Source: Candidatus Doudnabacteria bacterium (GTDB lineage: Bacteria > Patescibacteriota > Doudnabacteria > UBA920). From it: 41,945 nt of DNA. The stretch covers positions 1 to 41,945 of the forward strand of contig JBBRWU010000001.1 in the NCBI GenBank assembly GCA_038249015.1, written 5' to 3'. Each line of letters starts with the position of its first letter. The stretch's first letter is position 1. Made by a program: the position numbers and the translations under genes. Below are positions 9,237 through 33,963 of this stretch, one piece after another. Under the pieces are notes generated by a model. It was not told the DNA's origin. It did not search any database and saw only the letters and a program-made list of their open reading frames with translations.

Positions 9237-9605
9237 TTAGGAATTCAGGTTTTGGATCATTTTATTAAGCATCTTCATGACTTCTGTTAACAACGAAGTT
9301 ATCGATTTAAAATCAATCTCGGCAATAAATTTAAGTCTCTTGGCTATTTCTAATTGAGTTTCTAATTCGGCTCCTGAAGCAAATGCAATTATTAGAAATT
9401 GGCGAAAATCTTTTCTTGTTCCCCTTAGCCTGCCTTCAGCAATATTTGATGGTATAGAAACAGAACACCTTCTGCTTTGAGAAATTAATCCGTAGACTTC
9501 ACTTTTGGGATAATTGTCGGTCAAACGGTACAGTAAAACAACTAAATCCATAGCTTTTTGCCAAACAACCAAATCCCGATAAGATTGTATACTTTGTGTT
9601 TCCAT
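9237..9605 (-). CDS. Four-helix-bundle protein of the 23S rRNA intervening-sequence / Avd-like family
   Basis: 122 aa. YRDLVVWQKAMDLVVLLYRLTDNYPKSEVYGLISQSRRCSVSIPSNIAEG is the characteristic signature of this family. Confidence 0.8.
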   Translation of the reverse strand: METQSIQSYRDLVVWQKAMDLVVLLYRLTDNYPKSEVYGLISQSRRCSVSIPSNIAEGRLRGTRKDFRQFLIIAFASGAELETQLEIAKRLKFIAEIDFKSITSLLTEVMKMLNKMIQNLNS

Positions 9606-9620
9606 TGTTTTCCCTACAAG

Positions 9621-10364
9621 CTATAAGCTAAAACCTAAAAGCTTTCTTATTTGCTTTTCCGATATTGGACCTTGTCTCAGAATAGTTAAATCTTTACCTT
9701 CAATTTTAACCAAAGTTGAAGGCTTTCTTTTTAATAATTTTCCGGCGTTGATAATAATGTCGGGGCGGTATTTTTGCTTTTTAAATTGCTCAATAACCTC
9801 GTCCGCCGAATAACAATCAGCCTGACCTGAAACATTTGCACTGGTTGCCGTAATCGGATACTTTAAAATTTTTGCCAAATCTAAAGCAATATCATTCTTT
9901 GGCATTCTTAAACCAATCCAGCCTGTACTTGCCGATAATGTTTTTATTGTTTGCCGTAGAGGCTGCGCTTGCGCGCCCGTTTTTGATTGCGGGCGGCTTC
10001 CCCCTTCTCCGCCTAGGCGGATACGGAGGACAGGAAAGCTCGCCCCTACACCCTTAGCCCTTTGCCCCAATACCAACGTCAGCACTCCCGGCCACCATCG
10101 CTTGGCCAGCTTGGATGCGATTTTGCCCCATCGCACAATCTTTTTAGCATAAGCAACACTAGGCACCACAATTGAACTGGGCTTGTTAAAATTTCTACCT
10201 TTGATTTTATACAACTTTTTTATTGCGCTAATATTGCTCGCATCCACAGCCAAACCATAACTTGTATCTGTTTGGTATGCCAACACCTTCCCCTGCTTTA
10301 GTGCCAACACGCAGGCGTGGATAATTTTTTTATGGTATTTTTTTTGATAGTCAAGAATAATCAT
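9621..10364 (-). CDS. tsaC: L-threonylcarbamoyladenylate synthase (YrdC/Sua5 domain) with an internal GC-rich insertion
   Basis: Carries QTDTSYGL, KGRNFNKP, WPGVLTLVL and ATSANVSG. A segment of about 35-45 aa (GASFPVLRIRLGGEGGSRPQSKTGAQAQPLRQ) is encoded by a GC-rich palindrome-bearing block at about 9955-10055. Confidence 0.85.
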   Translation of the reverse strand: MIILDYQKKYHKKIIHACVLALKQGKVLAYQTDTSYGLAVDASNISAIKKLYKIKGRNFNKPSSIVVPSVAYAKKIVRWGKIASKLAKRWWPGVLTLVLGQRAKGVGASFPVLRIRLGGEGGSRPQSKTGAQAQPLRQTIKTLSASTGWIGLRMPKNDIALDLAKILKYPITATSANVSGQADCYSADEVIEQFKKQKYRPDIIINAGKLLKRKPSTLVKIEGKDLTILRQGPISEKQIRKLLGFSL

Positions 10365-10450
10365 AAATATCTTTACGGGGGTACGGATAACACATACGGA
10401 TATACGGAAAGAGAACGATATTCTACTTAAACCTTCCGTATTCCGTAAAA

Positions 10451-13400
10451 TTAAATTACTAAGTTCATTAATCTATTAGGCACAAAAACCACACGCTTAA
10501 TTGTTTCGCCAACCAAAGCCTGCTTTACAACCTCCATGACCACAACTTGAGCCTGCACCACTTCTTGGGAACTCCCGGCCGGCACGGTAATTTTTCCTTT
10601 AACTTTTCCGTTAATTTGGAAAACAATCTCCACAGTTGAGCTCACTGTCAAAGCCGGATCAAAAATTGGCCAACTAGTCTGCTGTAAAGATTTGATTTTC
10701 CGATTTTGCGATTTTCCGACAATCTGATGTAGTTCCTCCGAAATATGCGGGGCAAAAGGATGCAGTAAGATTAAAAATTGAGTGATAGATTCCAGGGTAA
10801 TAAACTCGTCCTTTATTTCATTATGAAATTCCATAAACGCCGAAATGGACGTATTGAATCTAAAATTTTCAATATCTTCAGTAATTTTTTTAATTAGTTT
10901 GTGCATTGCTCTCTGCACCTTCTCCGTGTCTTTTATTTCCGGCTTCCGATTTTCTGATTTTCTGATTTTCTGATGAGGTGCTTCCACAATTTCATTTACC
11001 CACGTCCACACCCTGTCTAAAAACCGCTTTACTCCCACTACACCCTTGTCATTCCAAGAGACCGTGGCTTCGTGGGGGCCTAAAAATAATTCATACATCC
11101 TTAATGTGTCAGCGCCGTGGCTCTTAACCACTTCATCAGGATTAACCACATTACCCCGGCTCTTGGACATTTTCTCCCCGTCAGGGCCTAAAATAATACC
11201 ATGTGGATGGCGTTTAGTGTAAGGCTCCTTTGATGATACCAAACCTTGGTCATACAAAAATAAATTCCAAAACCGGCTATAAAGCAAATGCAAAGTGGTG
11301 TGCTCCATCCCGCCGAAATAAATATCTACCGGTTGCCAGTATTTTAACTTCTTCATGTCGGCAAACTTTTGTTTATTCTTGGAGTCGGCGTATCTGAGCC
11401 AATACCAAGAACTGCCGGCCCATTGAGGCATGGTATTGGTTTCGCGCCAAGCGGTTTTTTTACATTTTGGACAAGTGGTTTTTAACCATTTTTTAATATT
11501 TGCCAAGGGCGATTCGCCCGTGCCGGTTGGTTCGTATTTTTTTACCTTTGGCAACATTACCGGCAAATCCTTTTCCGGGACCGGGACAATTCCGCAATCT
11601 TCACAGTGAATAAGCGGAATCGGCTCGCCCCAATAACGCTGGCGGGAAAATACCCAATCACGAAGTTTGTACTGCACTGTTAATTTGCCAAACTCCTCGC
11701 CCATTTTTATAATTGCTTCGACGGTTTTTAGCCCGTTAAATTTATCGGAATTTATTACTAACCCATAATCAACGAATGCTACGCTTTTAGTTTTTTTAAA
11801 AACGAAAAGTATGTCCTGGAAACCATCATCATTAAATCCTTTTTCCATATAATCTACAATTTCAAAACCTAAACTCTTTAACTCTTCTTCCACTTCATTT
11901 TTCTTCCAAAATTTAAAGTACCTTAAACTTTCCATCTTTGGATCTTTGACAAAATGTTCAGTGGCTTTTTTGTAATCCATTAAACTCAGGGCAAAGATAC
12001 CATTGTCTCTTAAGCCTAAATTAATCTTAGCCACTACCAATTTAAATTGCTCACGATTAAAATGCAATAAAACCTTATTTGCAAAAATTAAATCATATGA
12101 ATTAAGATCTATTTTGTCAGTGAACGCATTTAATTTTTTAATTTCTTTACCTAAACCTTTTTGGTAACTAATAAAGCTTTCCGCTGCATCAGTCCTCTCA
12201 ACTTTATAACCACGGCTTTCGATATAGTCAGAGTCCAAGCCCCTACCACTGCCCAATTCCAAAATTTTATCTGTTTTCTTTATTTTTTTTAAAAAATCAT
12301 CTACCCATTGTTTAAAGACACCATCAACCCCTCGGGTAGTTCTTTGAATATATTTATCCGCATGGTCTTCATAGGTTTTTAAAGTTATAGTGTTTTTTTC
12401 ATCGATGTTAACTACCGGGTATACTACTTGCTTAATCGGTAAATTATATCTGGTAGCAAACTCAAAGTCGCGCTCATCGTGAGCCGGCACTGCCATAATC
12501 GCTCCGGTGCCGTAATGACCTAAAACATAATCAGCTACCCACACGGTAACCTCTTCTTTGGTTGCAGGGTTAATAGCAAACAAACCTTTTAATTTTACTC
12601 CGGTTTTTTCCTTGCCTTCCGCGGTTCTTTCCATTTCCGCCTTCCCCTTTGCCTTTTCTATGTATTTCTTCACCTCGTCATAATTCGTAATTCTTGATTC
12701 ATAATTCTGAATCAGCGGATGTTCCGGCGCCACCACCATATAAGTCGCGCCGAAAATGGTATCAGGTCTGGTGGTAAAAACTTTAATCGATGGCGCGCAA
12801 TTTTCCAATAAAAAAGGTTCTTCATTACCATCAAAATGCGATTTAGTTGCGACCTGTTTTAACCACAGCCCATTTAATTCTTTTGCCAAAGACTGCCCGT
12901 CAGCTAAAGGAACGACATGGTCGGTCTCATCAGATATAGAAATAAAATTTTGTGCTTGAGCTTTAATTTTTTTGAAGTCAAAGCCTCTCTGAATTGCTTC
13001 TACCACACTTTTACGTGCTTTGCCGTCAGAAAACCTGCCAAGATACGGAGTAGATGCCAATATTACTTTATTTACTTTAATTCCTTGTTCCAACAAACGT
13101 AATGCTACAATCCCCCCAAAAGAATGACCTAAAATAACTGTTGATTCATCGAGCTTACAATTTTTCTTTACAAAATCAACTTGTTCTAAATCGCTCGGCT
13201 CATCGCCACCCGGCATTGCCGGTACCTGAACTTCGTATCCCAGTTTTTCCAACTTATTTTTTAACCAAGGTAAAAATGATTCTTCGGGTGAACTACCGCG
13301 TCCATGCAATAGCACAAACCTCTTAACACTCGGTTGATGTATGCCAAATTTAATTTCCGCGCCCGTGCTTTTACCAATCCAGTTTGCCTGTTGGAGTTTA

Positions 13401-14047
13401 ACGGCCCCCGGCCACTCGGGCAAGTTTTTCAAACCTTCCAATAATTTTTCCGCGTAAGCGGTTATCCGCAAATACCACTGGCGCAATTCTTTTTTCTGTA
13501 CGGCAGTACCGCAACGTTCACATTTACCGTCAATGACTTCTTCATTGGCCAGCCCGGTTTTATCTTTGGGGCACCAATTAATAAGTCCCGTGGCTTCGTA
13601 TGCCAAACCTTTTTTGTAAAATTGCAAAAATAACCACTGCGTCCATTTGTAGTATTCCGGATCCGTGGTGTTAATTTCCCGGTTCCAATCAAAACTCAAG
13701 CCCCAACTCTGAATTTGCCTTTTGGCATTTTTAATATTTGAGGCAGTGGTAATGGAAGGATGTACCCCCATTTTTATGGCATAATTTTCCGCCGGCAACC
13801 CAAAAGCGTCCCAGCCCATGGGGAAAAGTGTTTCAAAACCCTTCATCCGGTTAAACCGGGCCACAACGTCTCCCGCCACATACGGACGCAAATGGCCCAT
13901 ATGCAAACCGGCGCCTGAAGGATAAGGAAATTCCACCAGGATGTATTTTTTTTGCTTCTTGGAATTATCGATTGCGGAAAAAATTTTATTCTCTTCCCAA
14001 AATTTTTGCCATTTTAATTCAGTTTTTTGAGGATTGTACTTTTGCAT
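10451..14047 (-). CDS. leuS: Leucyl-tRNA synthetase carrying two inserted enzyme domains (1198 aa)
   Basis: Contains HIGH (HMGH, aa 49-52), KMSKS (aa 959-963), the CP1 editing motifs TTRPDT and GTGAIMAVPAHDERD, and RDWVFSRQRYWGEPIP. Extra domains lie at aa about 238-418 (GHSFGG hydrolase) and about 545-757 (ELGSGRG methyltransferase). Confidence 0.95.
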   Translation of the reverse strand: MQKYNPQKTELKWQKFWEENKIFSAIDNSKKQKKYILVEFPYPSGAGLHMGHLRPYVAGDVVARFNRMKGFETLFPMGWDAFGLPAENYAIKMGVHPSITTASNIKNAKRQIQSWGLSFDWNREINTTDPEYYKWTQWLFLQFYKKGLAYEATGLINWCPKDKTGLANEEVIDGKCERCGTAVQKKELRQWYLRITAYAEKLLEGLKNLPEWPGAVKLQQANWIGKSTGAEIKFGIHQPSVKRFVLLHGRGSSPEESFLPWLKNKLEKLGYEVQVPAMPGGDEPSDLEQVDFVKKNCKLDESTVILGHSFGGIVALRLLEQGIKVNKVILASTPYLGRFSDGKARKSVVEAIQRGFDFKKIKAQAQNFISISDETDHVVPLADGQSLAKELNGLWLKQVATKSHFDGNEEPFLLENCAPSIKVFTTRPDTIFGATYMVVAPEHPLIQNYESRITNYDEVKKYIEKAKGKAEMERTAEGKEKTGVKLKGLFAINPATKEEVTVWVADYVLGHYGTGAIMAVPAHDERDFEFATRYNLPIKQVVYPVVNIDEKNTITLKTYEDHADKYIQRTTRGVDGVFKQWVDDFLKKIKKTDKILELGSGRGLDSDYIESRGYKVERTDAAESFISYQKGLGKEIKKLNAFTDKIDLNSYDLIFANKVLLHFNREQFKLVVAKINLGLRDNGIFALSLMDYKKATEHFVKDPKMESLRYFKFWKKNEVEEELKSLGFEIVDYMEKGFNDDGFQDILFVFKKTKSVAFVDYGLVINSDKFNGLKTVEAIIKMGEEFGKLTVQYKLRDWVFSRQRYWGEPIPLIHCEDCGIVPVPEKDLPVMLPKVKKYEPTGTGESPLANIKKWLKTTCPKCKKTAWRETNTMPQWAGSSWYWLRYADSKNKQKFADMKKLKYWQPVDIYFGGMEHTTLHLLYSRFWNLFLYDQGLVSSKEPYTKRHPHGIILGPDGEKMSKSRGNVVNPDEVVKSHGADTLRMYELFLGPHEATVSWNDKGVVGVKRFLDRVWTWVNEIVEAPHQKIRKSENRKPEIKDTEKVQRAMHKLIKKITEDIENFRFNTSISAFMEFHNEIKDEFITLESITQFLILLHPFAPHISEELHQIVGKSQNRKIKSLQQTSWPIFDPALTVSSTVEIVFQINGKVKGKITVPAGSSQEVVQAQVVVMEVVKQALVGETIKRVVFVPNRLMNLVI

Positions 14048-14062
14048 ATGTTTATTGATTAT

Positions 14063-14317
14063 TGTAGTCTGCCGATTTATCGGCCTTTAATCATATCTGC
14101 TTGGCCTGATAAATCAGGCGACTACATTATACGTTTTATTTAGTTATGGTAGTTTGCCGATTTATCGGCTCTTAAAAGCATTTACTTTTCAGCCTGATGA
14201 ATCAGGCAACTACGCAATACATTTATTGATTATTATGATCTACCTGATTATCGGCCTGATGAATCAGGCAACTACAGTATAACTTAATTGATTATTGTAG
14301 TCTGCCGATTTATCGGC
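14063..14317. repeat. Array of REP hairpin units (at least 7 copies in alternating orientation)
   Basis: tgtagtctgccgatttatcggc (14063-14085), gcctgataaatcaggcgactaca (14104-14126), ggtagtttgccgatttatcggc (14148-14169), gcctgatgaatcaggcaactac (14192-14213), further copies at 14237-14276, and tgtagtctgccgatttatcggc (14296-14317). Confidence 0.85.
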
Positions 14318-14730
14318 TATTTATAGAATTGTTCAAATTTAATAATTTCTTCCTGTGGATTATTAATTACATACTGTCTAATTTTTTCCAAAGCTTTCTC
14401 ATTTCTAACCACATGCTCATAATAATTTGGTTGCCAAACAAACATCTGAAATTTATGTGACACCTTAGCTTTAAACCTTCTCACAACTTCTCCGAGACCG
14501 AATGAACATTGTCTTAAAATAAATATGATATGCGCATGATTTGGCATTATTACAAAATAATCCAAACTTAAACCTAAGGTTTTATTTTTTAAATCAGTAG
14601 GTTCTGATTCAATTTCCTGCTCTCTGCCTTTAAAAATATTTTCTCTTTTGTCAGCTACCACAGTTACAAAATAATAGCCATCACTTTTGTAGTCAAACTT
14701 TTTTAGTCTGATATTTTTTATGCCTCTCAT
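14317..14730 (-). mobile_element. REP-associated tyrosine transposase (RAYT, IS200/IS605 Y1 family)
   Basis: 137 aa. YYFVTVV, MPNHAHIIF (HUH motif) and WQPNYYEHVVRNEKALEKIRQYVINNP (catalytic Tyr region) are present. REP hairpins flank the gene on both sides. Confidence 0.85.
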
Positions 14731-15765: not shown

Positions 15766-16410
15766 TTATTTTTCAAAAATTAAATACTCTGAGCTATCTT
15801 TACCTGTATTATTTCTAACCTTAAAATGCAAGCCTAAGCTTAATAAATAATCTTGTGTTTTTATATCCGCTTCCCGATTATATTCATTCAAACGATTTAA
15901 ATCTGTTTTAGTTCTTTGGACAGGTGCTTTTGAATGAATATTATAATACTCCGGGTTTTGGTCAAATAACTGCCTTTTAATAAACCCAAACCTAATCGGA
16001 AAAACCCTGCTTTCCCCATTAACCGCCTGAACTCTAAACATCTCTTTTAAAATTTTTTCTGCTTCAAATTGTTTTTCAACCAAATACAATGGACCATTTC
16101 TACTTATAATTAAATCAAACGCATTACTTTCAAACGGCATGAGTGAAGCATTGCCTTTTACATAATTTAAACCTCTATTTTTTACTTGATTAGGTGTTTC
16201 TAAAGAAAATGAAACAAATTTTTTAGGATAACCTCTTAAATGAATGGCTTTTTCAACTGCCGCTGTTGAGGCTCCTAAATCTAAAGTTTTATTTTTGCGA
16301 AGTATGCCCTCAATAGTCAAACCCAAATCATCTAATATTTTCTTTGCTTCAGAAAATATCTTTTCATTTTCTAAGTCTAATCTATGCTGCTCTAAATATT
16401 CTCCATCCAT
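15766..16410 (-). CDS. Class I SAM-dependent methyltransferase-like protein
   Basis: LDLGASTAAVEKA resembles motif I and FDLIISRNGPLY resembles motif IV. The start is chosen at MDGEY, where the ATG overlaps the metG stop codon (TAATG). The longer track ORF would overlap metG by 82 nt. Confidence 0.6.
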   Translation of the reverse strand: MDGEYLEQHRLDLENEKIFSEAKKILDDLGLTIEGILRKNKTLDLGASTAAVEKAIHLRGYPKKFVSFSLETPNQVKNRGLNYVKGNASLMPFESNAFDLIISRNGPLYLVEKQFEAEKILKEMFRVQAVNGESRVFPIRFGFIKRQLFDQNPEYYNIHSKAPVQRTKTDLNRLNEYNREADIKTQDYLLSLGLHFKVRNNTGKDSSEYLIFEK

Positions 16411-17942
16411 TATATTATTCTCGGAAACAGTCGTGGAATATTTTCCACGCTGATGTCTTTTAATGCGGTTATAATTTTTGCACTGGTCCACGGCAAAACC
16501 GGGACCAAGGCTGTGGCCAGTTCTTCCAGTTTGCTCAGCAACTGTTCAATATCTTTTTTTGCTTTTTCCGGGTCAATTTTAATTACTTTAAACGGTTCAT
16601 TTTTTTGGATAAACTCGTCGCAGGCCTGAACTTTTTTCCAAATTTCATCCATATATTTTTGGAGTTGATAGTTATCAATCAACGAATTTTTCCCATCATG
16701 ATTCAACCTCTCTGCCTCGGATGCACTCGGCTTCTCCCCTCGCCAGGGGAGAAGGGACGCAGACGCCGCCATTTTCAAAATCCTGCTGGTCAAATTCCCT
16801 ATTCCATTGGCCAGTCCGGCATTATAACTTTCCGCAAAACGTTCCCAGGTGTAATCGCCGTCTTCAAAAGTCGGAATTTCGCGAAGTAAATAATAGCGCA
16901 AAGCTTCTGTCGCCTGCTCTGTATGTAAACCTTTTTCTATGAGTTGATTAATAATTGCATAAGGATCGGCCACATTACCCAATGACTTGGACATTTTTTG
17001 CCCGCCACTGGTTATAAACCCATGAATAATTATTTGTTTGGAATTTGGCAAGCCCGCGGACATTAACATTGCCTGCCACATGGCGGACTGTTGGCGGAGG
17101 TTATCTTTACCGGCAATTTGAACGCCCGGCCAATAATCCTGGAACTCAAAACCCTCACCCTGCCCTCTCTCAGAGGGAGAGGAGGGAGAAGGAGGCCAGC
17201 CCAAAGTTGAAACGTAATTGATGAGCGCGTCAAACCACACATACATAACATGGTTTTCGTCCCCCGGAACCGGAATACCCCAGGACATTTTTTCCTTTAA
17301 CCGGGAAACACTAAAATCTTCCAGGCCGTTTTTTACAAATTCCTTAATTTCGTTAAAGCGGAAATCCGGCACCACAAAGTCCGGCTGTTTTTGGTACAAA
17401 TCCAAAAGCGGTTGTTGGTATTTGGACCAGCGAAAAAAATAGTTTTCCTCTTCGCGGATTTCCAATTCCAAATTCGGATGAATAGGACATTTACCGTCCA
17501 CCAGCTCACTTTCGGTCTTCCCTAGCTCACAACCCACGCAATACTTGGTTTTATAATTCTTTTTATAAATATCGCCGTTTTTTTCACATTGACGCCAAAA
17601 TTCCTGCGCTGCCTCAACATGATGGGCGTCTGTGGTGCGGATAAAATGAATTTCGGGGCTAATTCCCAAAGCCGGCATAAGTTTTTTAAACTTATCCGCG
17701 TATTCATCTACATAACTTTGCACGTCCTGATTATTTTCCTGCGCCTTTTGAAAGATTTTCTGCCCGTGTTCGTCTGTACCGGTATTAAAAAACACATCCT
17801 GGTTTAAAACTTCTTTGTGGTAACGGGCAATAACGTCGGCCTGAACCATTTCTAAAGCAAACCCTAAATGAGGGTCTGAATTAACGTAAGGCAAAGCTGT
17901 GGTGATGTAGAATTTATTTTTGCTCATTGGTAATAATATCAA
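16410..17942 (-). CDS. metG: Methionyl-tRNA synthetase with two short GC-rich in-frame insertions
   Basis: Contains YITTALPYVNSDPHLGF, a CxxC..C zinc knuckle and KMSKS. The alternative start MSKNKF is at 17927. Inserts lie at about 17150-17200 (PPSPSSPSERGQGEG) and about 16706-16770 (LLPWRGEKPSASEAE). Confidence 0.95.
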   Translation of the reverse strand: MILLPMSKNKFYITTALPYVNSDPHLGFALEMVQADVIARYHKEVLNQDVFFNTGTDEHGQKIFQKAQENNQDVQSYVDEYADKFKKLMPALGISPEIHFIRTTDAHHVEAAQEFWRQCEKNGDIYKKNYKTKYCVGCELGKTESELVDGKCPIHPNLELEIREEENYFFRWSKYQQPLLDLYQKQPDFVVPDFRFNEIKEFVKNGLEDFSVSRLKEKMSWGIPVPGDENHVMYVWFDALINYVSTLGWPPSPSSPSERGQGEGFEFQDYWPGVQIAGKDNLRQQSAMWQAMLMSAGLPNSKQIIIHGFITSGGQKMSKSLGNVADPYAIINQLIEKGLHTEQATEALRYYLLREIPTFEDGDYTWERFAESYNAGLANGIGNLTSRILKMAASASLLPWRGEKPSASEAERLNHDGKNSLIDNYQLQKYMDEIWKKVQACDEFIQKNEPFKVIKIDPEKAKKDIEQLLSKLEELATALVPVLPWTSAKIITALKDISVENIPRLFPRII

Positions 17943-27894: not shown

Positions 27895-29064
27895 TTACCG
27901 ATTTCCTTTTGCTCGGTTATGTGTTTTGCACAGCATCTCACAATTCTTGGCTGAAGTTGCGCCACCTTTACTCCAGGCCGCTACATGATCGGCTTCCATT
28001 TCGGAAAAATTCCAAATCTTATCCTTGTTAGCATCATGACCAATAGCACAGTGTGAGCAGTTCGATATACTCTTAGTTTCGGCTTTAGTAGTTTGTGTTG
28101 AGTAAACAGTTTTCTTAGTTGCTTCGTCAAAGACCCTAACGTCAAGCAATTTTGTGTCATCGGAACCACCGAGGATATACTCAAAAATACCTTTGCGATT
28201 TTTGACATACGGATCACCATAGAGTTTACGCATCTCTTTTGACACTTTCGTCGGGTTATAAGCTGTCTTATGATACACCTCATACAGTCGCCCCCATTCT
28301 AGTCCACGCATCTCACTCTCTACATCTACAAATACACCAGACACCCAATCAATCACACTGCTGAAATACTTTTTCAACTCGGTAATATTTTTTTCAAAAC
28401 GATGACTGCTCATATAATCGCCAATATTGCTTTTACTTACCCAATCAAGCGCGCATTCCAAAAAATCTTGCCTGTTGGCGCTACCCGACACATACGCACT
28501 CCATTTTTGGATATTGGAGTTTTGGCTATTGCTAAATTCCTCCTTACCGAGCGTCACAAATGGTCCTGAATACACGGCATTGAGCAACTCTTGAGGATTA
28601 AGTGGAACACCGGCAATATTGATTGTTCTAAACCATTCTTTTATCTGACTTTCTGTCCCTTCGCATTCATAGATGAGCAATTTTGTTTCCAAAATCTTGG
28701 TTTTCTTGTCTTTAGCCATACCGCTAAAATTTTGTGGATTTCCGTTCTCGTCTTTGATAGCAAATTTATCAGTCACAAAACGTCCAACACTAGTGATGCG
28801 CTGTTGCCCGTCCAAAACTTCCAGATTGTTTAGAGATACCTGATTAAAATAAATTAAACCTATTGGGTAACCTTTGAGTATTGAGTCAATAACGGCAATC
28901 TCTCTTTTTCCGCCATCTGAAGCATAAATATAGTTGCGCTGATACTCCGGCTGAATAGTGAGCTTGCCAGACAAGCCGAATAATCCTTTGCCCTCCAGTT
29001 CGTTATAGACGAACCCTTCGCAAATATCTTTGACAGTGATGTCAGTTTTTAAAATTGTTTTCAT
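27895..29064 (-). CDS. DUF262 (ParB/Srx-like NTPase, GmrSD N-domain type) fused to a C-terminal HNH nuclease
   Basis: [11 protein letters not shown] and LDGQQRITS are DUF262 hallmarks. The C-terminus CSHC...[31 protein letters not shown] is HNH. The start is taken at MKTILKT; the track ORF extends to 29115. Confidence 0.8.
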
Positions 29065-29141
29065 AATATTAAAATTTTTATTAATTTTTATCTTTTGTTT
29101 TTTTCTCAACTGCACTAATTGGTGGTTTTGCTTTTTTCATG

Positions 29142-30323
29142 TTATTTTTTCTCAATTCGCTTCTCGCGGAAAGCGTCGTCAAATATTTCATAATAATCGG
29201 CATAGATATATTTCTGTCCATAATCCGCATCGCCAAGAGGCTCAAGGATTTTTAGACCCTTGAGTCGTTCAATCACATTGTACGCTCCTGGAGCAGTGAA
29301 GCCCGTCCACTTCATTATTTCTGCCACACCGACGATCGGTTGACCAAACAACTTACGCACTATCTCTAGTGTGGACTCAGCCGATTTTTTGCCAAGTTTG
29401 TGCATTTTAGCAAAATCGCGGTCCCGCAGTGCAGTGATTTTTGTGCAAGTTTCAATAGAAGAGTTGGCAATTTCTGCGACACCTTCAAGGAAAAATTCCA
29501 ACCAGCCGTCAATATCTGCATCTTCGTCATGGTATGCCTGCAATTTTTGGTAATACAGCTTTTGGTATTTCTTGAAGTAGTTAGAGAGATACAGCACAGG
29601 CAATTCTAAAAGTTTTGCATGTTGAATATACATAGCAATGAGCATTCGCCCAGTTCGACCATTTCCATCAGTGAACGGGTGGATAGTCTCAAACTGTGCA
29701 TGTAAAAGTCCTGCTTTCACCAATGAAGGATATTCATCCTTCGCATGAATAAATTTTTCAAGGTCATCAAGAGATCTGTGCATATCATCAGGCGCAGGAG
29801 GCACAAAAGATGCATCAGCTGGAGTTTTCCCTCCAATCCAATTTTGACTATAGCGAAACTCACCCGGATATGCATGCTGGGTCGAACGCGCGCTGGTCAT
29901 TAACTTTTTATGAATTTCTTTTATCAATCGTAAAGAGATTGGCAATGTTTCTATTCTCTTCATTCCATAGTTAACGGCTTCAACATAGTGGATAATATCA
30001 TCAACATCGGGATGTTGGCGTGATTTTTCTTCTGTAACAGAAGCAGCGACTGCATCTTGTAAGGTTGCTTGAGTTCCTTCAATTTGACTGGAGTATGTTG
30101 CATCCTTTTTTATGAACATTAAAAGGAAAAAATCTTTATCCGGCAAAAGTTGCGTAATGCCATCAAGTTTACCAACAAGCCTGATTGCTTCTTCATGTTT
30201 CTTGTAGAGTCTAGGACTAATGACAAAACCACCCTTTGGAGGAAACTCAAAAGGGGTAAAGGCTCGAAAACCCTCTTTTTGGACTATATATTGGCCTATT
30301 TTCAGTTTGTTTATGTTGTTCAT
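29142..30323 (-). CDS. Fic-family protein (class II, putative AMP-transferase) with a C-terminal wHTH-like region
   Basis: The canonical Fic motif HPFTDGNGRTGR is present. The N-terminal inhibitory-helix motif SSQIEG matches (S/T)xxxE(G/N). Confidence 0.9.
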   Translation of the reverse strand: MNNINKLKIGQYIVQKEGFRAFTPFEFPPKGGFVISPRLYKKHEEAIRLVGKLDGITQLLPDKDFFLLMFIKKDATYSSQIEGTQATLQDAVAASVTEEKSRQHPDVDDIIHYVEAVNYGMKRIETLPISLRLIKEIHKKLMTSARSTQHAYPGEFRYSQNWIGGKTPADASFVPPAPDDMHRSLDDLEKFIHAKDEYPSLVKAGLLHAQFETIHPFTDGNGRTGRMLIAMYIQHAKLLELPVLYLSNYFKKYQKLYYQKLQAYHDEDADIDGWLEFFLEGVAEIANSSIETCTKITALRDRDFAKMHKLGKKSAESTLEIVRKLFGQPIVGVAEIMKWTGFTAPGAYNVIERLKGLKILEPLGDADYGQKYIYADYYEIFDDAFREKRIEKK

Positions 30324-30335
30324 ATAGATATAAAC

Positions 30336-30364
30336 ATATTATGCTATTTCGTTTATATTTGCAA
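30336..30364 (-). promoter_or_regulatory. Candidate promoter for the fic gene, TTGCAA-17 nt-TAATAT
   Basis: On the minus strand, TTGCAA is at 30364-30359 and TAATAT at 30341-30336, about 13 nt upstream of the fic ATG. Confidence 0.4.
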
Positions 30365-30402
30365 GTCTAATGTCAACTCTTTAAATATCGTTAAATCTTG
30401 CC

Positions 30403-30483
30403 TCACGATACCTTTTCAATCCTCGGCTGACCATTGTCGCCTTCATAGATTATAATTTCACCGATTTGATTGTCTTTTTTCAT
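30403..30483 (-). pseudogene. Possible N-terminal relic of a RhuM-like gene overlapping the 3' end of the RloC-like gene
   Basis: MKKDNQIGEIIIYEGDNGQPRIEKVS* resembles the conserved RhuM N-terminus (GEI.iYq..dg...iev). It stops after 26 codons. Confidence 0.3.
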
Positions 30484-32671
30484 ATTTTCTATAATTATTA
30501 TGCCAATAAGCACTGAAATGTTCACTGGCATTATTATTACCAAAAAGTTTTTGTAACATTGTTTTGATTTCATCTTTCGTCCTCCCATTTTGCTCTGCCT
30601 CCAAATCGTCAATTGAGTGTTGATTGACATCGTAAAGTTTTTTAACGCCAAGATTATTTTCAAAAAACTTATCTATACCAATAGAATTAAATTTCATATA
30701 AGTTTCGCAAATCTTCCTGAATGGATTTAGCATTATGTCTGCAGTAGCGTTATCTTCTTCATATAAAAATTGTATTTCTTTCCACAATAATTCATAGTTC
30801 GTCTTAAAATCTTGCTTGCCATTTTCAATACTTTTAATGCTTGCATGCTTGCCATCAGAAAGCAGACAATAATTACCATATTTTTCATAAAAACTAATTT
30901 CTTTATCGTTGCACTTATATTTTGTCGCCGTGTTTGGGCGAACATTTAGATAAAAATGGCAATTATGTGTTAAAAAAAGAAAATAGTTGCCATCATTAAG
31001 ATTTCTATAAAATTTTTGGATTTCACTGATCATTAAATATTGCATTGTGTCATCGTTGCTCGTCATCGGATCGTCAAAAACAACAATTTTTGGTTTACTA
31101 CTACCACTATCAACTTTTTCGAGAGAAAAAATAAAATATAAAAACGCAATAATATTTTTCTCTCCTTTGCTTAACTTCGTTATGTGTCGTACGTCACCAT
31201 CATGACCCTTGATTTTATATTGTCCTTTTTGACTTTCATCAGTATCGGTTACCAATTCAATAGAAAATGAACACGCGCCCATATTTTTCAAAAGTTCATT
31301 TATTTTTCTAGCAATTTCCTTTTCATCTTTTGTTTGCGAAATAAGATCACTTTTTTCTATTTGCCTTGCGACTAATTCTCCCTTTTTATCATTAAGTGCT
31401 TTTTCCGCCCCATCTCTACTGGTTTTCAAGGTTGATATTTTCCAGTTTTCTTCATCATACTTAAAAGTATTCAACGCTTTTTTAACTTCATGAAAACGCA
31501 AGACATTTTTTGCAGTTTCTTGCTCATTGTTTAAGTTCTTTGAAAAAAGATTATTTTTATCAACTATTTTTTCATAGTCAGTTTTAACACTACTGAAATC
31601 AGGTAGCGCTATATCAGTCAATGACTTTGATAGGGTAAACAAATTCTTCTTTTTATCTTCCAGTGCTTTGTTCAAATTACCAAGAAAAGTTTTATGTTCT
31701 CCTTTGGTATTTTTAATCTGTAAATTGATATTTTTTATTTGGTCGCCAAACTTATCATAAAAATCACCCCTGTTGATCTCCCGTAAAAAGTCTATATTTT
31801 TAAGTTCGGAATCTATTTTCTTGAGCTCATCATCAATACCGGTTTCTAACTTTTTTACTTCGTCATTAAAATAACCACCGAGCAGTTTCCATCGGTCATC
31901 ACTAATTTCATTCCCACAAAAAGCACACTTCTCGTCATTCTCGTGCTGGTGTATACGCAAACCTTCTCGCGCAAAATTTTGCTTATCTGTATTGCCTTGT
32001 AATTCAGAAATAATTTGCTGTTGAAAAACCTTTGATTGTAAAATCGTATTTGTTGATTTTTGATAATCAGACAGTATAATTTCTGGAAAATTTATTTTAG
32101 AGACATCATTTTTCTTTTCTGATTTTATAGTTTCATTGTGCTTTTTTATATCATCACTAGAAAGTAACTCTGCACTACTAATTTCTTCTTTAAATGAATT
32201 TTTATCATAACTTGTTTTTGCAATTTGTGGATTTGTCTGATTTTTTATTATCTGTGCGGAGTCACTATAAAATTTCTCTATTTTATTAGATTGTTCTTTG
32301 TACTTTTTATCCGCTCGTTCTAATTTTATAAAGATATTTTCAGACTTATCTACTGGTTGCTCAATTTCCTTTTTGATATTTACAATTTCAACATCAACCG
32401 CATCAATTTTTGTTTGAATTTTAGTATTTTCTGTCCCTAATGCAACTGCCTCTAATCGTTCATTTTCACCAACAACGCCATCGAAGCCACTAAAAATACA
32501 GACTTGATAACTATCTTGCTGTTGCGATTTTATTGTATCAGCAATAGTAGTTTTACCTGTACCATTTTTCCCAAAGATAAAATTGATTTTCTTTGTTAGT
32601 AAAAGTTCTCTGCTTTTGTTCGCAAATCTTTCTGGAAAACTTTCTAAATTTATTTTTAGTGAAGTTTCCAT
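30458..32671 (-). CDS. RloC/PrrC-like AAA_13 ATPase with coiled-coil zinc hook and an anticodon-nuclease-like C-terminal region
   Basis: Walker A FGKNGTGKTT, a long K/E-rich coiled coil with CAFCGNEI (CxxC hook), Walker B IVVFDDPMTSND, and a C-terminal NPFRKICETY...NQHS (Arg-Glu-His pattern as in PrrC/RloC). The start at METSLK (32671) lies 1 nt after the methyltransferase stop. Confidence 0.7.
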   Translation of the reverse strand: METSLKINLESFPERFANKSRELLLTKKINFIFGKNGTGKTTIADTIKSQQQDSYQVCIFSGFDGVVGENERLEAVALGTENTKIQTKIDAVDVEIVNIKKEIEQPVDKSENIFIKLERADKKYKEQSNKIEKFYSDSAQIIKNQTNPQIAKTSYDKNSFKEEISSAELLSSDDIKKHNETIKSEKKNDVSKINFPEIILSDYQKSTNTILQSKVFQQQIISELQGNTDKQNFAREGLRIHQHENDEKCAFCGNEISDDRWKLLGGYFNDEVKKLETGIDDELKKIDSELKNIDFLREINRGDFYDKFGDQIKNINLQIKNTKGEHKTFLGNLNKALEDKKKNLFTLSKSLTDIALPDFSSVKTDYEKIVDKNNLFSKNLNNEQETAKNVLRFHEVKKALNTFKYDEENWKISTLKTSRDGAEKALNDKKGELVARQIEKSDLISQTKDEKEIARKINELLKNMGACSFSIELVTDTDESQKGQYKIKGHDGDVRHITKLSKGEKNIIAFLYFIFSLEKVDSGSSKPKIVVFDDPMTSNDDTMQYLMISEIQKFYRNLNDGNYFLFLTHNCHFYLNVRPNTATKYKCNDKEISFYEKYGNYCLLSDGKHASIKSIENGKQDFKTNYELLWKEIQFLYEEDNATADIMLNPFRKICETYMKFNSIGIDKFFENNLGVKKLYDVNQHSIDDLEAEQNGRTKDEIKTMLQKLFGNNNASEHFSAYWHNNYRKYEKRQSNR

Positions 32672-32672
32672 A

Positions 32673-33860: not shown

Positions 33861-33963
33861 AATTATTTTCTCTTTATTAAACCATACGCCAAAACGAAAT
33901 GTTGATTGCCTTATGTAAATTTTTATTCGAAAATTTATTTGTCCATAAAAACTCACAACTAAA

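What the first reader, a model, noticed from the sequence alone, without database searches (positions are those of the whole stretch)
10451..14047. LeuRS carries two complete extra enzyme domains: a serine alpha/beta-hydrolase before CP1 and a SAM methyltransferase inside CP1
The protein is 1198 aa and all LeuRS landmarks are present (HMGH, TTRPDT, GTGAIMAVPAHDERD, RDWVFSRQRYWGEPIP, KMSKS). Between NWIGKSTGAEIKF and the start of the editing domain lies a module of about 180 aa (nt about 12794-13336). It has FVLLHGRGSS, a GHSFGG nucleophile elbow, SDETDHVVP and SHF, which gives an apparently intact Ser-Asp-His triad of the YdeN/RBBP9-like serine hydrolase type. Inside CP1, between YNLPIKQVV and GLVINSDKFNGL, lies a module of about 210 aa (nt about 11777-12415) with ILELGSGRGLD, ERTD and DLIFANKVLLHF, the class I SAM-methyltransferase motifs. 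No intein splice motifs are visible. An esterase fold beside the editing site could act as an additional aminoacyl-ester proofreading activity. A methyltransferase could modify the bound tRNA. Both functional ideas are speculation.
Basis: partly seen in the sequence, partly recalled or inferred. Interest (0 to 1): 0.8.

Follow-up and report, generated by a model that had tools for sequence, protein, structure and literature searches.

The report
LeuRS carrying two nested extra enzymes
An essential translation enzyme (leucyl-tRNA synthetase) of an ultra-small Patescibacteria bacterium has two complete, apparently active extra enzymes nested inside its proofreading domain, and this is one case of an apparently undescribed habit of swapping small enzyme modules in and out of essential proteins.

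Summary
ORF 10451-14047(-) encodes a 1198-aa bacterial LeuRS whose synthetic and editing motifs match T. thermophilus LeuRS. Two complete domains are nested in CP1. Aa 240-419 is an RBBP9/YdeN-family serine hydrolase with an intact triad. Aa 543-756 is a class I SAM methyltransferase closest to the uncharacterised PDB 3e23. Both have free-standing homologs that align end to end, and there are no intein features. A 71%-identical protein with both inserts was assembled independently in two metagenomes. Among the 120 closest LeuRS, about 100 carry the hydrolase, at four or more sites. Slot 2 holds MTase, NUDIX, HAD, a second hydrolase or unknown modules. Cargo turns over between close relatives: two LeuRS 96% identical differ only by the hydrolase. 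The same hydrolase is also nested in ValRS, AlaRS, TsaD, EngA, SecA and UvrB and fused to Adk. Most likely these are autonomous accessory enzymes on permissive loops. The hydrolase is probably an alpha-aminoacyl ester/amide hydrolase. Coupling to tRNA editing is possible but unproven, and nothing links the MTase to tRNA. I found no prior description.

The parts
10451..14047 (-). leuS ORF, 1198 aa plus stop: bacterial-type leucyl-tRNA synthetase with two nested cargo domains
   Evidence: TIGR00396 scores 994 bits and 1h3n gives E=8e-225.
13331..14047 (-). aa 1-239: first half of the catalytic Rossmann fold (HMGH signature), the ZN1 region, and the first strand of the CP1 hairpin (NWIGKSTGAEIKF)
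   Evidence: Aligns with T. thermophilus LeuRS 1-239.
12791..13330 (-). Cargo 1 (slot 1), aa 240-419: RBBP9/YdeN-family serine hydrolase. It has the HG oxyanion motif (H248-G249), the GHSFG elbow with Ser309 (nt 13121-13123), Asp376 (nt 12920-12922, equivalent to RBBP9 Asp138) and His404 (nt 12836-12838). It also has the signature residues typical of LeuRS-nested copies: F339, D341, D373 and E410.
12422..12790 (-). aa 420-542: CP1 editing core, with TTRPDT (aa 425-430) and GTGAIMAVPAHDERD. Both motifs match T. thermophilus LeuRS except for one conservative Q-to-E change.
   Evidence: alignment, domain 2; PF13603 at 7e-57.
11780..12421 (-). Cargo 2 (slot 2), aa 543-756: class I SAM-dependent methyltransferase of the 3e23/RPA2492 type. 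Motif I is ILELGSGRG, the acidic residue after beta2 is in ERTD, and motif IV is DLIFANKVLLHF.
11159..11779 (-). aa 757-963: end of CP1, the RDWVFSRQRYWGEPIP motif, the ZN2 knuckles (HCEDCG, CPKCKK), the second half of the Rossmann fold and KMSKS. The leucine-specific domain (Tt 582-636) is absent.
10451..11158 (-). aa 964-1198: anticodon-binding domain and C-terminal domain
   Evidence: PF08264 at 5.5e-20; aligns with Tt 637-876.

Best explanation
This is a working, canonical LeuRS of a Patescibacteria bacterium, probably related to Doudnabacteria. Its CP1 editing domain serves as a landing pad for two self-contained accessory enzymes.

Shown: each cargo is a complete domain derived from a family of free-standing ~180-220-aa enzymes. 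Each is spliced in frame into a CP1 turn or loop, so the host strands on both sides are preserved. Inferred: these loops are surface-exposed, and the cargo folds on its own, like a bead on a loop.

Cargo 1 is a catalytically intact RBBP9/YdeN-type serine hydrolase. By homology, the chemistry I consider most likely is hydrolysis of ester or amide bonds to a hydrophobic alpha-amino acid that has a free amine. Cargo 2 is a SAM-binding methyltransferase of the small-molecule type with an unknown substrate.

I judge that both act mainly as autonomous enzymes, in a housecleaning or scavenging role. In that view LeuRS supplies constitutive expression and a tolerant scaffold, and is not itself their substrate. 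The modules belong to a pool (RBBP9-like hydrolase, NUDIX, HAD, MTase) that is gained, lost and exchanged between LeuRS alleles. The likely route is homologous recombination through the highly conserved flanking codons.

Shown: the domain identities, insertion points, conserved catalytic residues, combinatorial occupancy, recent presence/absence polymorphism, and occurrence in other hosts.

Inferred: enzymatic activity, substrate class, autonomy from LeuRS, and the recombination mechanism.
For: - Host intact: the LeuRS synthetic and editing motifs match T. thermophilus.
- Complete domains: free-standing homologs align end to end with each cargo. The AF2 models are confident and match RBBP9 and 3e23.
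- Selection on catalysis: in the 90-sequence slot 1 alignment, Ser309 and His404 are 100% conserved and Asp376 is 90% conserved. Over 148 LeuRS-nested copies, position 376 is Asp in 80% and Glu in 16%.
- Modularity: slot 1 is either empty (25 aa between anchors) or filled (~200 aa). Slot 2 holds MTase (3), NUDIX (14), HAD (1), hydrolase (2) or unknown modules (2) at exactly the same junction. Up to four nested domains occur in one LeuRS, L028 at 1558 aa.
- Turnover: P0001 and P0002 are 82% identical in the core, 66% in the MTase and only 38% in the hydrolase, which belongs to a different subtype. P0004 has the same MTase with an empty slot 1.
- Recent gain or loss: P0005 and P0039 are 96% identical apart from the 177-aa hydrolase. 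There is only one substitution in the adjacent CP1 core and no target-site duplication. The DNA identity is mosaic, 83-100%.
- Host independence: the same module is nested in ValRS, AlaRS, UvrB, SecA, TsaD and EngA and fused to Adk. 80 of the top 150 cluster representatives are free-standing.
- Chemistry: RBBP9 forms acyl-enzymes with Leu/Ile, Met, Phe, Tyr and Trp and needs a free alpha-amine (PMC8866121).
- MTase: its relatives are nearly all free-standing ~200-aa proteins.
Against: - LeuRS is by far the preferred host, with four or more independent insertion sites.
- LeuRS-nested copies share residues that are rare in free-standing ones: F339 85% against 20%, D341 75% against 31%, D373 87% against 13%, E410 91% against 20%. 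That hints at specialisation or at a docking interface.
- Copies nested in ValRS, AlaRS, TsaD and EngA are closest to the LeuRS-nested lineage, so that lineage associates with translation proteins.
- The linkers are short, and the cargo ends 5-6 residues from the editing-site threonines, so it cannot be far from the editing pocket.
- No activity or substrate has been measured, and no full-length model was made.
- It is unclear why an autonomous enzyme would be nested in a host protein instead of being encoded as a separate gene.
Confidence: 0.5

Rival explanations
1. Coupled quality control. The RBBP9-like hydrolase is a second, cis-acting (or aaRS-tethered trans-acting) aminoacyl-ester hydrolase. 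It would deacylate mischarged or otherwise unwanted aminoacyl-tRNA with hydrophobic side chains, possibly D-aminoacyl-tRNA, or related aminoacyl esters or thioesters produced by LeuRS, such as homocysteine thiolactone. In that case it widens the proofreading done by CP1.
For: - RBBP9 cleaves bonds to single hydrophobic amino acids with a free amine, described as 'amide (or ester or thioester)'. It is also cited as a valacyclovir (L-valyl ester) hydrolase.
- The unrelated valacyclovirase BPHL is an efficient homocysteine thiolactonase (PMC4198189 abstract). From my own knowledge, editing aaRSs generate that thiolactone.
- The module sits 5-6 residues from TTRPDT, on short linkers.
- It has been fused repeatedly to LeuRS at four or more sites.
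- LeuRS-nested copies have their own conserved signature.
- That lineage has spread into ValRS, AlaRS, TsaD and EngA, all translation-related.
Against: - The canonical CP1 editing site is fully intact.
- The insertion sites differ widely, including the ZN2 knuckle and a loop of the anticodon-binding domain. That argues against a precise path for the CCA end.
- In ValRS and AlaRS the module is not in the editing domain.
- It also occurs in UvrB, SecA and Adk, and free-standing.
- LeuRS alleles 96% identical exist with and without it, so it is dispensable for LeuRS.
- RBBP9 also accepts Leu/Ile, which would risk hydrolysing correctly charged Leu-tRNALeu.
Confidence: 0.3
2. Built-in self-defence. 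The cargoes (aminoacyl hydrolase, NUDIX, HAD, MTase) would inactivate aminoacyl-nucleotide-type inhibitors aimed at LeuRS or other aaRSs, by analogy with MccF and MccE against microcin C. Placing them on the target enzyme would put the detoxifier where the inhibitor binds.
For: - All four cargo families catalyse reactions that could inactivate an aminoacyl-adenylate mimic: cleaving the aminoacyl bond, cleaving the nucleotide, dephosphorylating or methylating (inference).
- NCBIfam lists an IleRS with an N-acetyltransferase domain, NF040702, as a precedent for a modifying enzyme fused to an aaRS.
- Rapid cargo turnover is typical of conflict-related genes.
Against: - There are no meaningful PADLOC hits.
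- No inhibitor of this kind is known for these organisms.
- The module also occurs in proteins that are not aaRSs.
- The argument is entirely by analogy.
Confidence: 0.07
3. Neutral or selfish passengers. The inserts would be tolerated domain-sized insertions with no benefit to the cell, spreading by recombination because CP1 loops are permissive.
For: - Presence/absence polymorphism with no compensatory change in the host.
- Many hosts and many insertion sites.
- Low-complexity linker expansions in the same hairpin in some LeuRS show the site tolerates non-functional sequence.
Against: - Catalytic residues are essentially invariant across more than 140 nested copies that are only 35-50% identical to each other. 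The Nudix box is invariant in the NUDIX cargoes. That indicates purifying selection on enzyme activity.
- None of these activities has an obvious role in DNA mobility.
- There are no terminal repeats or target-site duplications.
Confidence: 0.1
4. Artefact. The architecture would be a chimeric assembly, a frameshifted pseudogene, or inteins that are spliced out of the mature protein.
For: The source is a metagenome-derived contig. The MTase segment has lower GC (about 0.28-0.31) than the LeuRS core (about 0.43-0.46).
Against: - It is a single uninterrupted 1198-codon ORF.
- The same architecture appears in two independent metagenomes, and about 100 related LeuRS carry the hydrolase.
- The junctions are conserved and clean.
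- There are no Hint or intein Pfam hits and no Cys/Ser...His-Asn-Cys/Ser/Thr splice-junction residues.
- The GC of the MTase segment is close to that of neighbouring genes in the window (about 0.31-0.35).
Confidence: 0.02

Closest known systems
Bacterial LeuRS with the canonical CP1 editing domain (T. thermophilus 1h3n, E. coli 4aq7)
   Same: Same enzyme family and domain order. The HIGH-type and KMSKS signatures are present, and the editing motifs TTRPDT and GTGAIMAVPAHD(E/Q)RD are essentially identical. The ZN2 knuckles and the C-terminal domain are also present.
   Different: It carries 180-aa and 214-aa enzyme domains nested inside CP1, so CP1, itself an inserted domain, becomes a host. 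It lacks the leucine-specific domain (Tt 582-636). A 2026 survey reported the LeuRS editing domain as insertion-only, with no host events (PMC13114784).
RBBP9 / YdeN serine hydrolases (Pfam PF06821; PDB 2qs9, 7oex, 1uxo)
   Same: Same fold (TM 0.84 and 0.81) and similar size (~180 aa). It has the GHSxG nucleophile elbow, the HG oxyanion motif, and an Asp and His aligned to RBBP9 Asp138 and His165.
   Different: It is nested in another protein instead of free-standing. RBBP9's alpha-amine anchors Ser76 and Glu108 are not conserved. LeuRS-nested copies instead share F339, D341, D373 and E410. The substrate has not been tested.
PDB 3e23 (RPA2492), TehB and phosphoethanolamine N-methyltransferase-type class I MTases
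   Same: Rossmann-like SAM-MTase fold with motifs I, post-I and IV conserved. The profile gives E=7e-24 to 3e23, whose structure contains SAM.
   Different: It is nested in LeuRS. 3e23 itself is uncharacterised, so no substrate can be transferred from it. tRNA MTases such as METTL6 appear only as generic fold neighbours, at TM about 0.67-0.71.
aaRSs with extra catalytic or editing modules (IleRS with a GNAT domain, NCBIfam NF040702; fused editing domains of AlaRS, ThrRS and ProRS; free trans-editing factors AlaX, YbaK and DTD)
   Same: An aaRS polypeptide that carries an additional hydrolytic or modifying domain. The idea of an added deacylase has precedent.
   Different: The known modules are dedicated folds, fixed within a family, and mostly terminal or at a single site. 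Here the modules are generic metabolic enzyme folds, they are interchangeable and optional, and they are nested inside the editing domain. The IleRS-GNAT model matched only the synthetase part of the query. The other named examples are from my own knowledge.
Inteins
   Same: Domain-sized, in-frame insertions in essential proteins, with presence/absence polymorphism.
   Different: There is no Hint domain and there are no splice-junction residues. The cargoes are ordinary enzymes with conserved active sites, and the insertion sites are surface turns, not conserved catalytic motifs. They are not expected to be excised.
METTL6-SerRS complex
   Same: A methyltransferase physically associated with an aaRS. 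This is a lead from my own knowledge; METTL6 structures appear among the fold neighbours.
   Different: That association is non-covalent and METTL6 is a dedicated tRNA m3C methyltransferase. Here no evidence links the MTase to tRNA.

Membership tests
Bacterial leucyl-tRNA synthetase (TIGR00396 leuS_bact) | Full-length match above the curated equivalog cutoff | tested here: met
   994 bits against a cutoff of 548.4. The match is split into 3 stretches by the inserts.
Bacterial leucyl-tRNA synthetase (TIGR00396 leuS_bact) | Class I signatures (HIGH-type and KMSKS) and the CP1 editing motifs (threonine-rich TTRPDT; GTG...HDxRD with the conserved Asp) | tested here: met
   HMGH, KMSKS, TTRPDT and GTGAIMAVPAHDERD are present and align with T. 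thermophilus LeuRS.
Bacterial leucyl-tRNA synthetase (TIGR00396 leuS_bact) | Aminoacylation and editing activity; sole leuS copy in the genome | not testable with these tools
   Only a 42-kb window is available. Conserved synteny (MetRS-TatD-LeuRS-Sua5) in four related contigs is consistent with this being the housekeeping copy.
RBBP9/YdeN serine hydrolase family (Pfam PF06821) | Sequence match above the Pfam gathering score | tested here: met
   The isolated domain scores 24.6 bits against a cutoff of 22. The full-length protein scores 19.5, below the cutoff. A profile of the nested copies gives RBBP9 2e-32 and YdeN 2e-29.
RBBP9/YdeN serine hydrolase family (Pfam PF06821) | Compact alpha/beta-hydrolase fold of about 180 aa without a lid domain | tested here: met
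   AF2 pLDDT 96.6. The top Foldseek hits are 7oex and 2qs9 (TM 0.84) and 1uxo (TM 0.81).
RBBP9/YdeN serine hydrolase family (Pfam PF06821) | Ser-Asp-His triad (RBBP9 Ser75, Asp138, His165) and the GxSxG elbow | tested here: met
   Ser309, Asp376 and His404 align to the RBBP9 triad. In 148 LeuRS-nested copies they are conserved at 100%, 80% Asp plus 16% Glu, and 100%.
RBBP9/YdeN serine hydrolase family (Pfam PF06821) | Aminopeptidase or aminoacyl-ester hydrolase activity that needs a free alpha-amine; RBBP9's alpha-amine anchors Ser76, Tyr99 and Glu108 | tested here: inconclusive
   Activity cannot be tested here. By the HMM alignment, Ser76 corresponds to Phe or Leu, and Glu108 is not conserved. 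A conserved F339-x-D341 aligns with RBBP9 Leu103-x-Asp105.
Class I SAM-dependent methyltransferase (Pfam Methyltransf_23/11/12; TehB-like) | Sequence match above the gathering score | tested here: met
   For the isolated domain: Methyltransf_23 30.7 bits (cutoff 27), TehB 29.4 (cutoff 20.4), Methyltransf_11 27.4 (cutoff 21.2).
Class I SAM-dependent methyltransferase (Pfam Methyltransf_23/11/12; TehB-like) | SAM-binding motif I (E/DxGxGxG), an acidic residue after beta2, and motif IV | tested here: met
   ILELGSGRG, ERTD and DLIFANKVLLHF are present. G57, G61, D63 and D78 are invariant in alignment A2, and the motifs align with SAM-bound 3e23.
TehB / BioC / other named MTase equivalogs | Score above the NCBIfam equivalog cutoff | tested here: not met
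   TehB 34.9 bits against 219.5; BioC 33.2 against 184.95. It is not a member of any named equivalog.
tRNA methyltransferase | Specific similarity to a known tRNA MTase family or an RNA-binding module | tested here: not met
   There are no tRNA-MTase families among the Pfam, NCBIfam or PDB sequence hits. METTL6 appears only as a generic fold neighbour.
Intein | Hint domain and splice-junction residues (N-terminal Cys/Ser; C-terminal His-Asn followed by Cys/Ser/Thr) | tested here: not met
   There are no Hint or intein hits. The junctions read F-GIHQPSV...NCAPS-IKVF and VV-YPVV...VAFVDY-GLV.

The most novel reading that the evidence does not exclude
Patescibacteria have a previously undescribed mode of gene organisation. 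A pool of small enzyme cassettes (RBBP9-like hydrolase, NUDIX, HAD, SAM-MTase) would be repeatedly nested in frame into surface loops of essential translation and housekeeping proteins. The LeuRS editing domain would be the main landing pad, holding up to four cassettes. The cassettes would be exchanged, gained and lost between closely related strains. In effect these would be mobile units at the level of protein domains, and at least the LeuRS-type hydrolase lineage would be functionally tied to translation quality control.
Probability: 0.25. Interest if true: 0.9.

Novelty: new variant of a known kind. Interest (0 to 1): 0.75.

Why it matters
- **aaRS architecture.** aaRSs are among the most conserved proteins known, and the LeuRS editing domain has been described as an insertion-only module. 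Here it hosts one to four interchangeable enzymes, in organisms known for minimal genomes.
- **Testable questions.** Does an RBBP9-type aminoacyl hydrolase provide a new kind of translational quality control or amino-acid and metabolite housekeeping? How do whole domains move in and out of essential genes without harming them? Why do genome-reduced episymbionts nest enzymes inside other proteins and not only encode them separately?
- **Engineering.** The two CP1 sites are natural, repeatedly validated permissive positions for domain insertion in LeuRS.
- **Annotation.** These proteins are currently labelled either 'leucine--tRNA ligase' or 'alpha/beta fold hydrolase', and neither label shows the composite architecture.

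Tried and rejected
- **Intein hypothesis.** Rejected: no Hint hits and no splice-junction residues.
- **Mis-assembly.** Rejected: independent assemblies and about 100 relatives show the same architecture.
- **Transposon-like insertion.** No terminal direct or inverted repeats or target-site duplications at either cargo boundary in the window, or at the filled/empty junction of L139 against L141.
- **Hydrolase replacing a degenerate editing site.** Rejected: the CP1 motifs are intact. Only the slot 3 variants P0100 and P0109 have an altered TTWPHT motif.
- **Defence-system membership.** No meaningful PADLOC hit.
- **Single-domain word-index searches.** Each returned only three hits, which were useful only for finding free-standing homologs.
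- **Genome-collection scan with the broad alignment A1.** It was repeated with the subtype-A alignment A5, so the sample is biased towards LeuRS-type copies.
- **Metagenome scan with the MTase.** The rarity of MTase nesting therefore rests on 3 of 120 LeuRS.
- **Source names and taxonomy for the non-LeuRS hosts.** None were available.
- **Literature.** Six searches found no description of nested enzyme domains in LeuRS or other Patescibacteria proteins. One further search failed on term syntax. The library does not cover most subscription journals.
- **Full-length structure.** Not predicted, because both prediction jobs went on the two cargo domains. The spatial relation of the cargo active sites to the editing pocket is therefore unknown.

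Full report
**1.

The minus strand of the window carries one uninterrupted ORF, 10451-14047, of 1198 codons. It is a bacterial-type LeuRS: TIGR00396 scores 994 bits against a cutoff of 548, and T. thermophilus LeuRS (PDB 1h3n) matches at E=8e-225.

The HMMER alignment to 1h3n falls into four blocks:
- query 1-239 with Tt 1-239
- query 420-542 with Tt 242-362
- query 757-956 with Tt 376-581
- query 959-1198 with Tt 637-876

From this, insert 1 (aa 240-419, nt 12791-13330) replaces a two-residue turn, and insert 2 (aa 543-756, nt 11780-12421) replaces a loop of about 13 residues. The query also lacks the leucine-specific domain. The editing motifs TTRPDT and GTGAIMAVPAHDERD match T. thermophilus apart from one conservative Q-to-E change, so the canonical editing site is intact.

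It is at the tip of a beta-hairpin whose second strand runs straight into the threonine-rich editing motif. It is not 'before CP1'.

**2. What the inserts are**

*Insert 1.* Alone it hits Abhydrolase_6, Abhydrolase_1 and Ser_hydrolase PF06821 above their gathering scores. A profile of 23 copies hits human RBBP9 at 2e-32 and B. subtilis YdeN at 2e-29. The AlphaFold2 model has pLDDT 96.6, and its best PDB matches are RBBP9 (TM 0.84) and YdeN (TM 0.81). Ser309 (GHSFG), Asp376 and His404 align with the RBBP9 triad Ser75/Asp138/His165.

*Insert 2.* It hits Methyltransf_23, Methyltransf_11 and TehB above threshold but reaches no NCBIfam equivalog cutoff. Its profile hits the uncharacterised SAM-bound MTase 3e23 at 7e-24, followed by phosphoethanolamine N-methyltransferases and TehB. 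The model (pLDDT 82.8) again matches 3e23 best. The SAM-binding motifs are conserved.

Free-standing homologs align end to end with each insert: P0121 and P0123 for the hydrolase, and P0124 and P0125 for the MTase. Each insert is therefore a complete domain. There are no Hint or intein hits and no splice-junction residues.

**3. Not an artefact**

P0002 is 71% identical, 1187 aa long, and has both inserts. It lies on contigs from two different JGI metagenomes, in a neighbourhood syntenic with the window: MetRS, TatD, a small variable ORF, LeuRS, Sua5, MFS. The lower GC of the MTase segment is close to that of neighbouring genes and does not indicate foreign DNA.

**4. The wider pattern in LeuRS**

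I measured both slots with motif anchors in the 120 closest LeuRS, which are from Patescibacteria, many labelled Doudnabacteria.

| Feature | Finding among the 120 LeuRS |
|---|---|
| Slot 1 | Empty (25 aa between anchors) or filled (~200 aa) |
| Hydrolase in slot 1 | 96 proteins |
| No hydrolase anywhere | 18 proteins |
| Hydrolase in slot 2 | P0055, and the second copy in P0040 |
| Hydrolase after the HCxxC zinc knuckle | P0100, P0109 |
| Hydrolase in an anticodon-binding-domain loop | P0104 (truncated) |
| Tandem hydrolases in slot 1 | P0111 |
| Slot 2 cargo | MTase 3, NUDIX 14 (invariant Nudix box), HAD 1, hydrolase 2, unknown ~115-aa modules 2 |

All slot 2 cargoes sit at exactly the same junction. 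In species-representative genomes some LeuRS reach 1339-1558 aa, with two NUDIX domains plus the hydrolase in slot 1 and another NUDIX in slot 2. The organism labels span Doudnabacteria, Saccharibacteria, Nomurabacteria, Paceibacterota, Magasanikbacteria, Woesebacteria and Parcubacteria.

**5. Cargo is under selection but turns over**

In the 90-sequence slot 1 alignment, Ser309 and His404 are invariant and Asp376 is 90% conserved. Over 148 LeuRS-nested copies, position 376 is Asp in 80% and Glu in 16%.

Cargo history is decoupled from host history:
- There are two hydrolase subtypes, GHSFG and GHSLG. Copies are about 36% identical between subtypes and about 49% within them. Host cores are about 65% identical either way.
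- Core identity and cargo identity correlate only weakly (Spearman rho 0.15).
- The query's nearest host relative, P0002, is 82% identical in the core and 66% in the MTase, but its hydrolase is of the other subtype and only 38% identical.
- P0004 shares the MTase but has an empty slot 1.

The clearest case is P0005 (1009 aa) against P0039 (832 aa). They are 96% identical outside slot 1 and differ by the exact presence or absence of the 177-aa hydrolase, with one substitution in the adjacent CP1 core. Both genes lie in the same syntenic context. At the DNA level they are a mosaic, 83-100% identical. The empty allele's 24-27 nt of turn codons are replaced by about 555 nt, with no target-site duplication. 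This fits allelic exchange through the conserved flanks and shows that LeuRS works with or without the module.

**6. The hydrolase is not specific to LeuRS**

An exhaustive profile search of 1.84 billion cluster representatives gave 264 hits at E<=1e-30. Of the top 150, 80 are free-standing proteins of 230 aa or less. Most of the long ones are LeuRS or LeuRS fragments.

The module is also nested in ValRS, AlaRS, UvrB, SecA, TsaD and EngA/Der, and fused to adenylate kinase. The triad is intact in all of them.

Two observations pull the other way:
- LeuRS-nested copies share residues that are rare in free-standing ones: F339, D341, D373 and E410.
- The copies in ValRS, AlaRS, EngA and TsaD are closest to LeuRS-nested copies, whereas those in UvrB and Adk are closest to free-standing ones.

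The MTase's relatives in metagenomes are nearly all free-standing ~200-aa proteins from organisms with very different GC content.

**7. Mechanism**

The closest characterised relative, RBBP9, forms acyl-enzyme intermediates with single Leu/Ile, Met, Phe, Tyr or Trp residues. [quoted passage not shown] It is also cited as a valacyclovir-activating (L-valyl ester) hydrolase (reference list of PMC7730578).

The most likely chemistry for cargo 1 is therefore hydrolysis of hydrophobic alpha-aminoacyl esters or amides. Whether the physiological substrate is aminoacyl-tRNA remains open.

I favour an autonomous accessory enzyme carried on a permissive loop (confidence 0.5) over a coupled second editing activity (0.3). 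The reasons are the variable insertion sites, the other hosts, the free-standing copies, the dispensability shown by P0005 and P0039, and the intact CP1 site. I do not dismiss the coupled model, because of the preference for LeuRS, the nested-copy signature, the short linkers next to the editing strand, and the spread of that lineage into translation proteins.

For the MTase the evidence supports only 'an active SAM-dependent methyltransferase of the small-molecule type, substrate unknown'. Less likely alternatives are self-defence against aminoacyl-nucleotide inhibitors (0.07; no PADLOC support), neutral passengers (0.1; contradicted by active-site conservation), and artefact or intein (0.02).

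**8. Novelty**

aaRSs with extra domains are known, for example the IleRS-GNAT model NF040702 seen, and domain insertion is common. I found no description of enzyme domains nested inside the LeuRS editing domain, or of interchangeable nested cassettes in Patescibacteria proteins.

A 2026 survey explicitly reports the LeuRS editing domain as insertion-only, with no host events (PMC13114784). An earlier paper noted domain fusion and swapping in CPR aaRSs in general (PMC5370408). Database entries label these proteins simply 'leucine--tRNA ligase' or 'alpha/beta fold hydrolase'.

I rate this a new variant of a known kind, of high interest. The specific window protein, with hydrolase plus MTase, is a rare combination: 2 of the 120 closest LeuRS.

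**Limits**
- No full-length structure was predicted.
- No activities were measured.
- No whole genomes were available, so copy number and complementary distribution were not tested.
- The taxonomy of the non-LeuRS hosts is unknown.
- The literature library is incomplete.

Noticed in passing
window 9621-10364 (-), insert at about nt 9966-10055: The Sua5/TsaC ORF (247 aa) contains a 29-aa GC-rich in-frame insertion (GC about 0.53 against about 0.35 nearby) with the palindrome CCGCCTAGGCGG at 10008-10021. The insertion is missing from the aligned ortholog in L001 (219 aa). The 217-218-aa orthologs in L139 and L141 are too short to contain it. It splits the Pfam Sua5 match into two stretches.
   Followed up: partly
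window 14317-14730 (-), between TatD and leuS: The ORF directly upstream of leuS is an IS200-like Y1 transposase (PF01797). In syntenic loci the same position holds a DUF559 endonuclease-like ORF (L001, L141) or an unknown 231-aa ORF (L139). This intergenic slot is a hotspot for variable or mobile genes.
   Followed up: partly
window 10394-10441 (leuS-sua5 spacer): Three TCCGTAT copies in inverted arrangement lie within 48 bp between the leuS stop and the sua5 start. A fourth copy lies inside the GC-rich Sua5 insertion (10021-10027). The window-wide count (7) is not significant against shuffles (mean 3.5), but the local cluster could be a hairpin, terminator or operator.
   Followed up: no
window 9237-9605 (-): A gene for a 23S-rRNA-intervening-sequence protein (PF05635, four-helix bundle) lies between sua5 and the MFS gene. 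It is present in L139 and L141 but absent from the syntenic L001.
   Followed up: no
window 27895-33956 (-): A defence-like gene cluster: GmrSD_N+HNH (27895-29115), Fic (29142-30323), AAA_13 (30458-32797) and an EcoRI-type adenine methylase (32673-33956).
   Followed up: no
L028:2054-6727, L035:419-4435, L027, L022 (GTDB species-representative genomes): Giant LeuRS of 1175-1558 aa. L028 has three NUDIX stretches (two in slot 1, one in slot 2) plus the RBBP9-like hydrolase, so four enzyme domains are nested in one CP1.
   Followed up: partly
P0171, P0176, P0213, P0165, P0172, P0210, P0258: The same RBBP9-like hydrolase is nested in ValRS, AlaRS, UvrB, SecA, TsaD and EngA/Der and fused to adenylate kinase, with an intact triad in each. 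The copies in ValRS, AlaRS, EngA and TsaD are closest to LeuRS-nested copies. Those in UvrB and Adk are closest to free-standing ones.
   Followed up: partly
L139:2501-5530 against L141:2501-4999: Two leuS alleles encode proteins 96% identical outside slot 1 and differ by the exact presence or absence of the hydrolase module. DNA identity along the gene is mosaic, from 83% to 100% in 120-nt windows, which suggests recombination between related strains.
   Followed up: yes
P0100 and P0109 (LeuRS, hydrolase after the HCxxC knuckle): These two LeuRS have TTWPHT in place of the TTRPDT editing motif and TPTHDQRD in place of VPAHDxRD. Their CP1 editing site may be altered in the lineage where the hydrolase sits at a third site.
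   Followed up: no
P0055, P0056, P0092, P0097 (slot 1): Some LeuRS with an 'empty' slot 1 carry 15-45-aa low-complexity (Ser/Glu/Pro-rich) expansions at the hairpin tip. This suggests the site is solvent-exposed and tolerant of insertions.
   Followed up: no
window 15766-16491 (-) and 16410-17942 (-): A 241-aa methyltransferase-like ORF (weak PF08241 hit) overlaps the 3' end of the MetRS ORF by about 80 nt as called from the first start codon. A homologous 216-aa ORF follows MetRS in L139 and L141. The MetRS itself (510 aa) has no nested domains.
   Followed up: no
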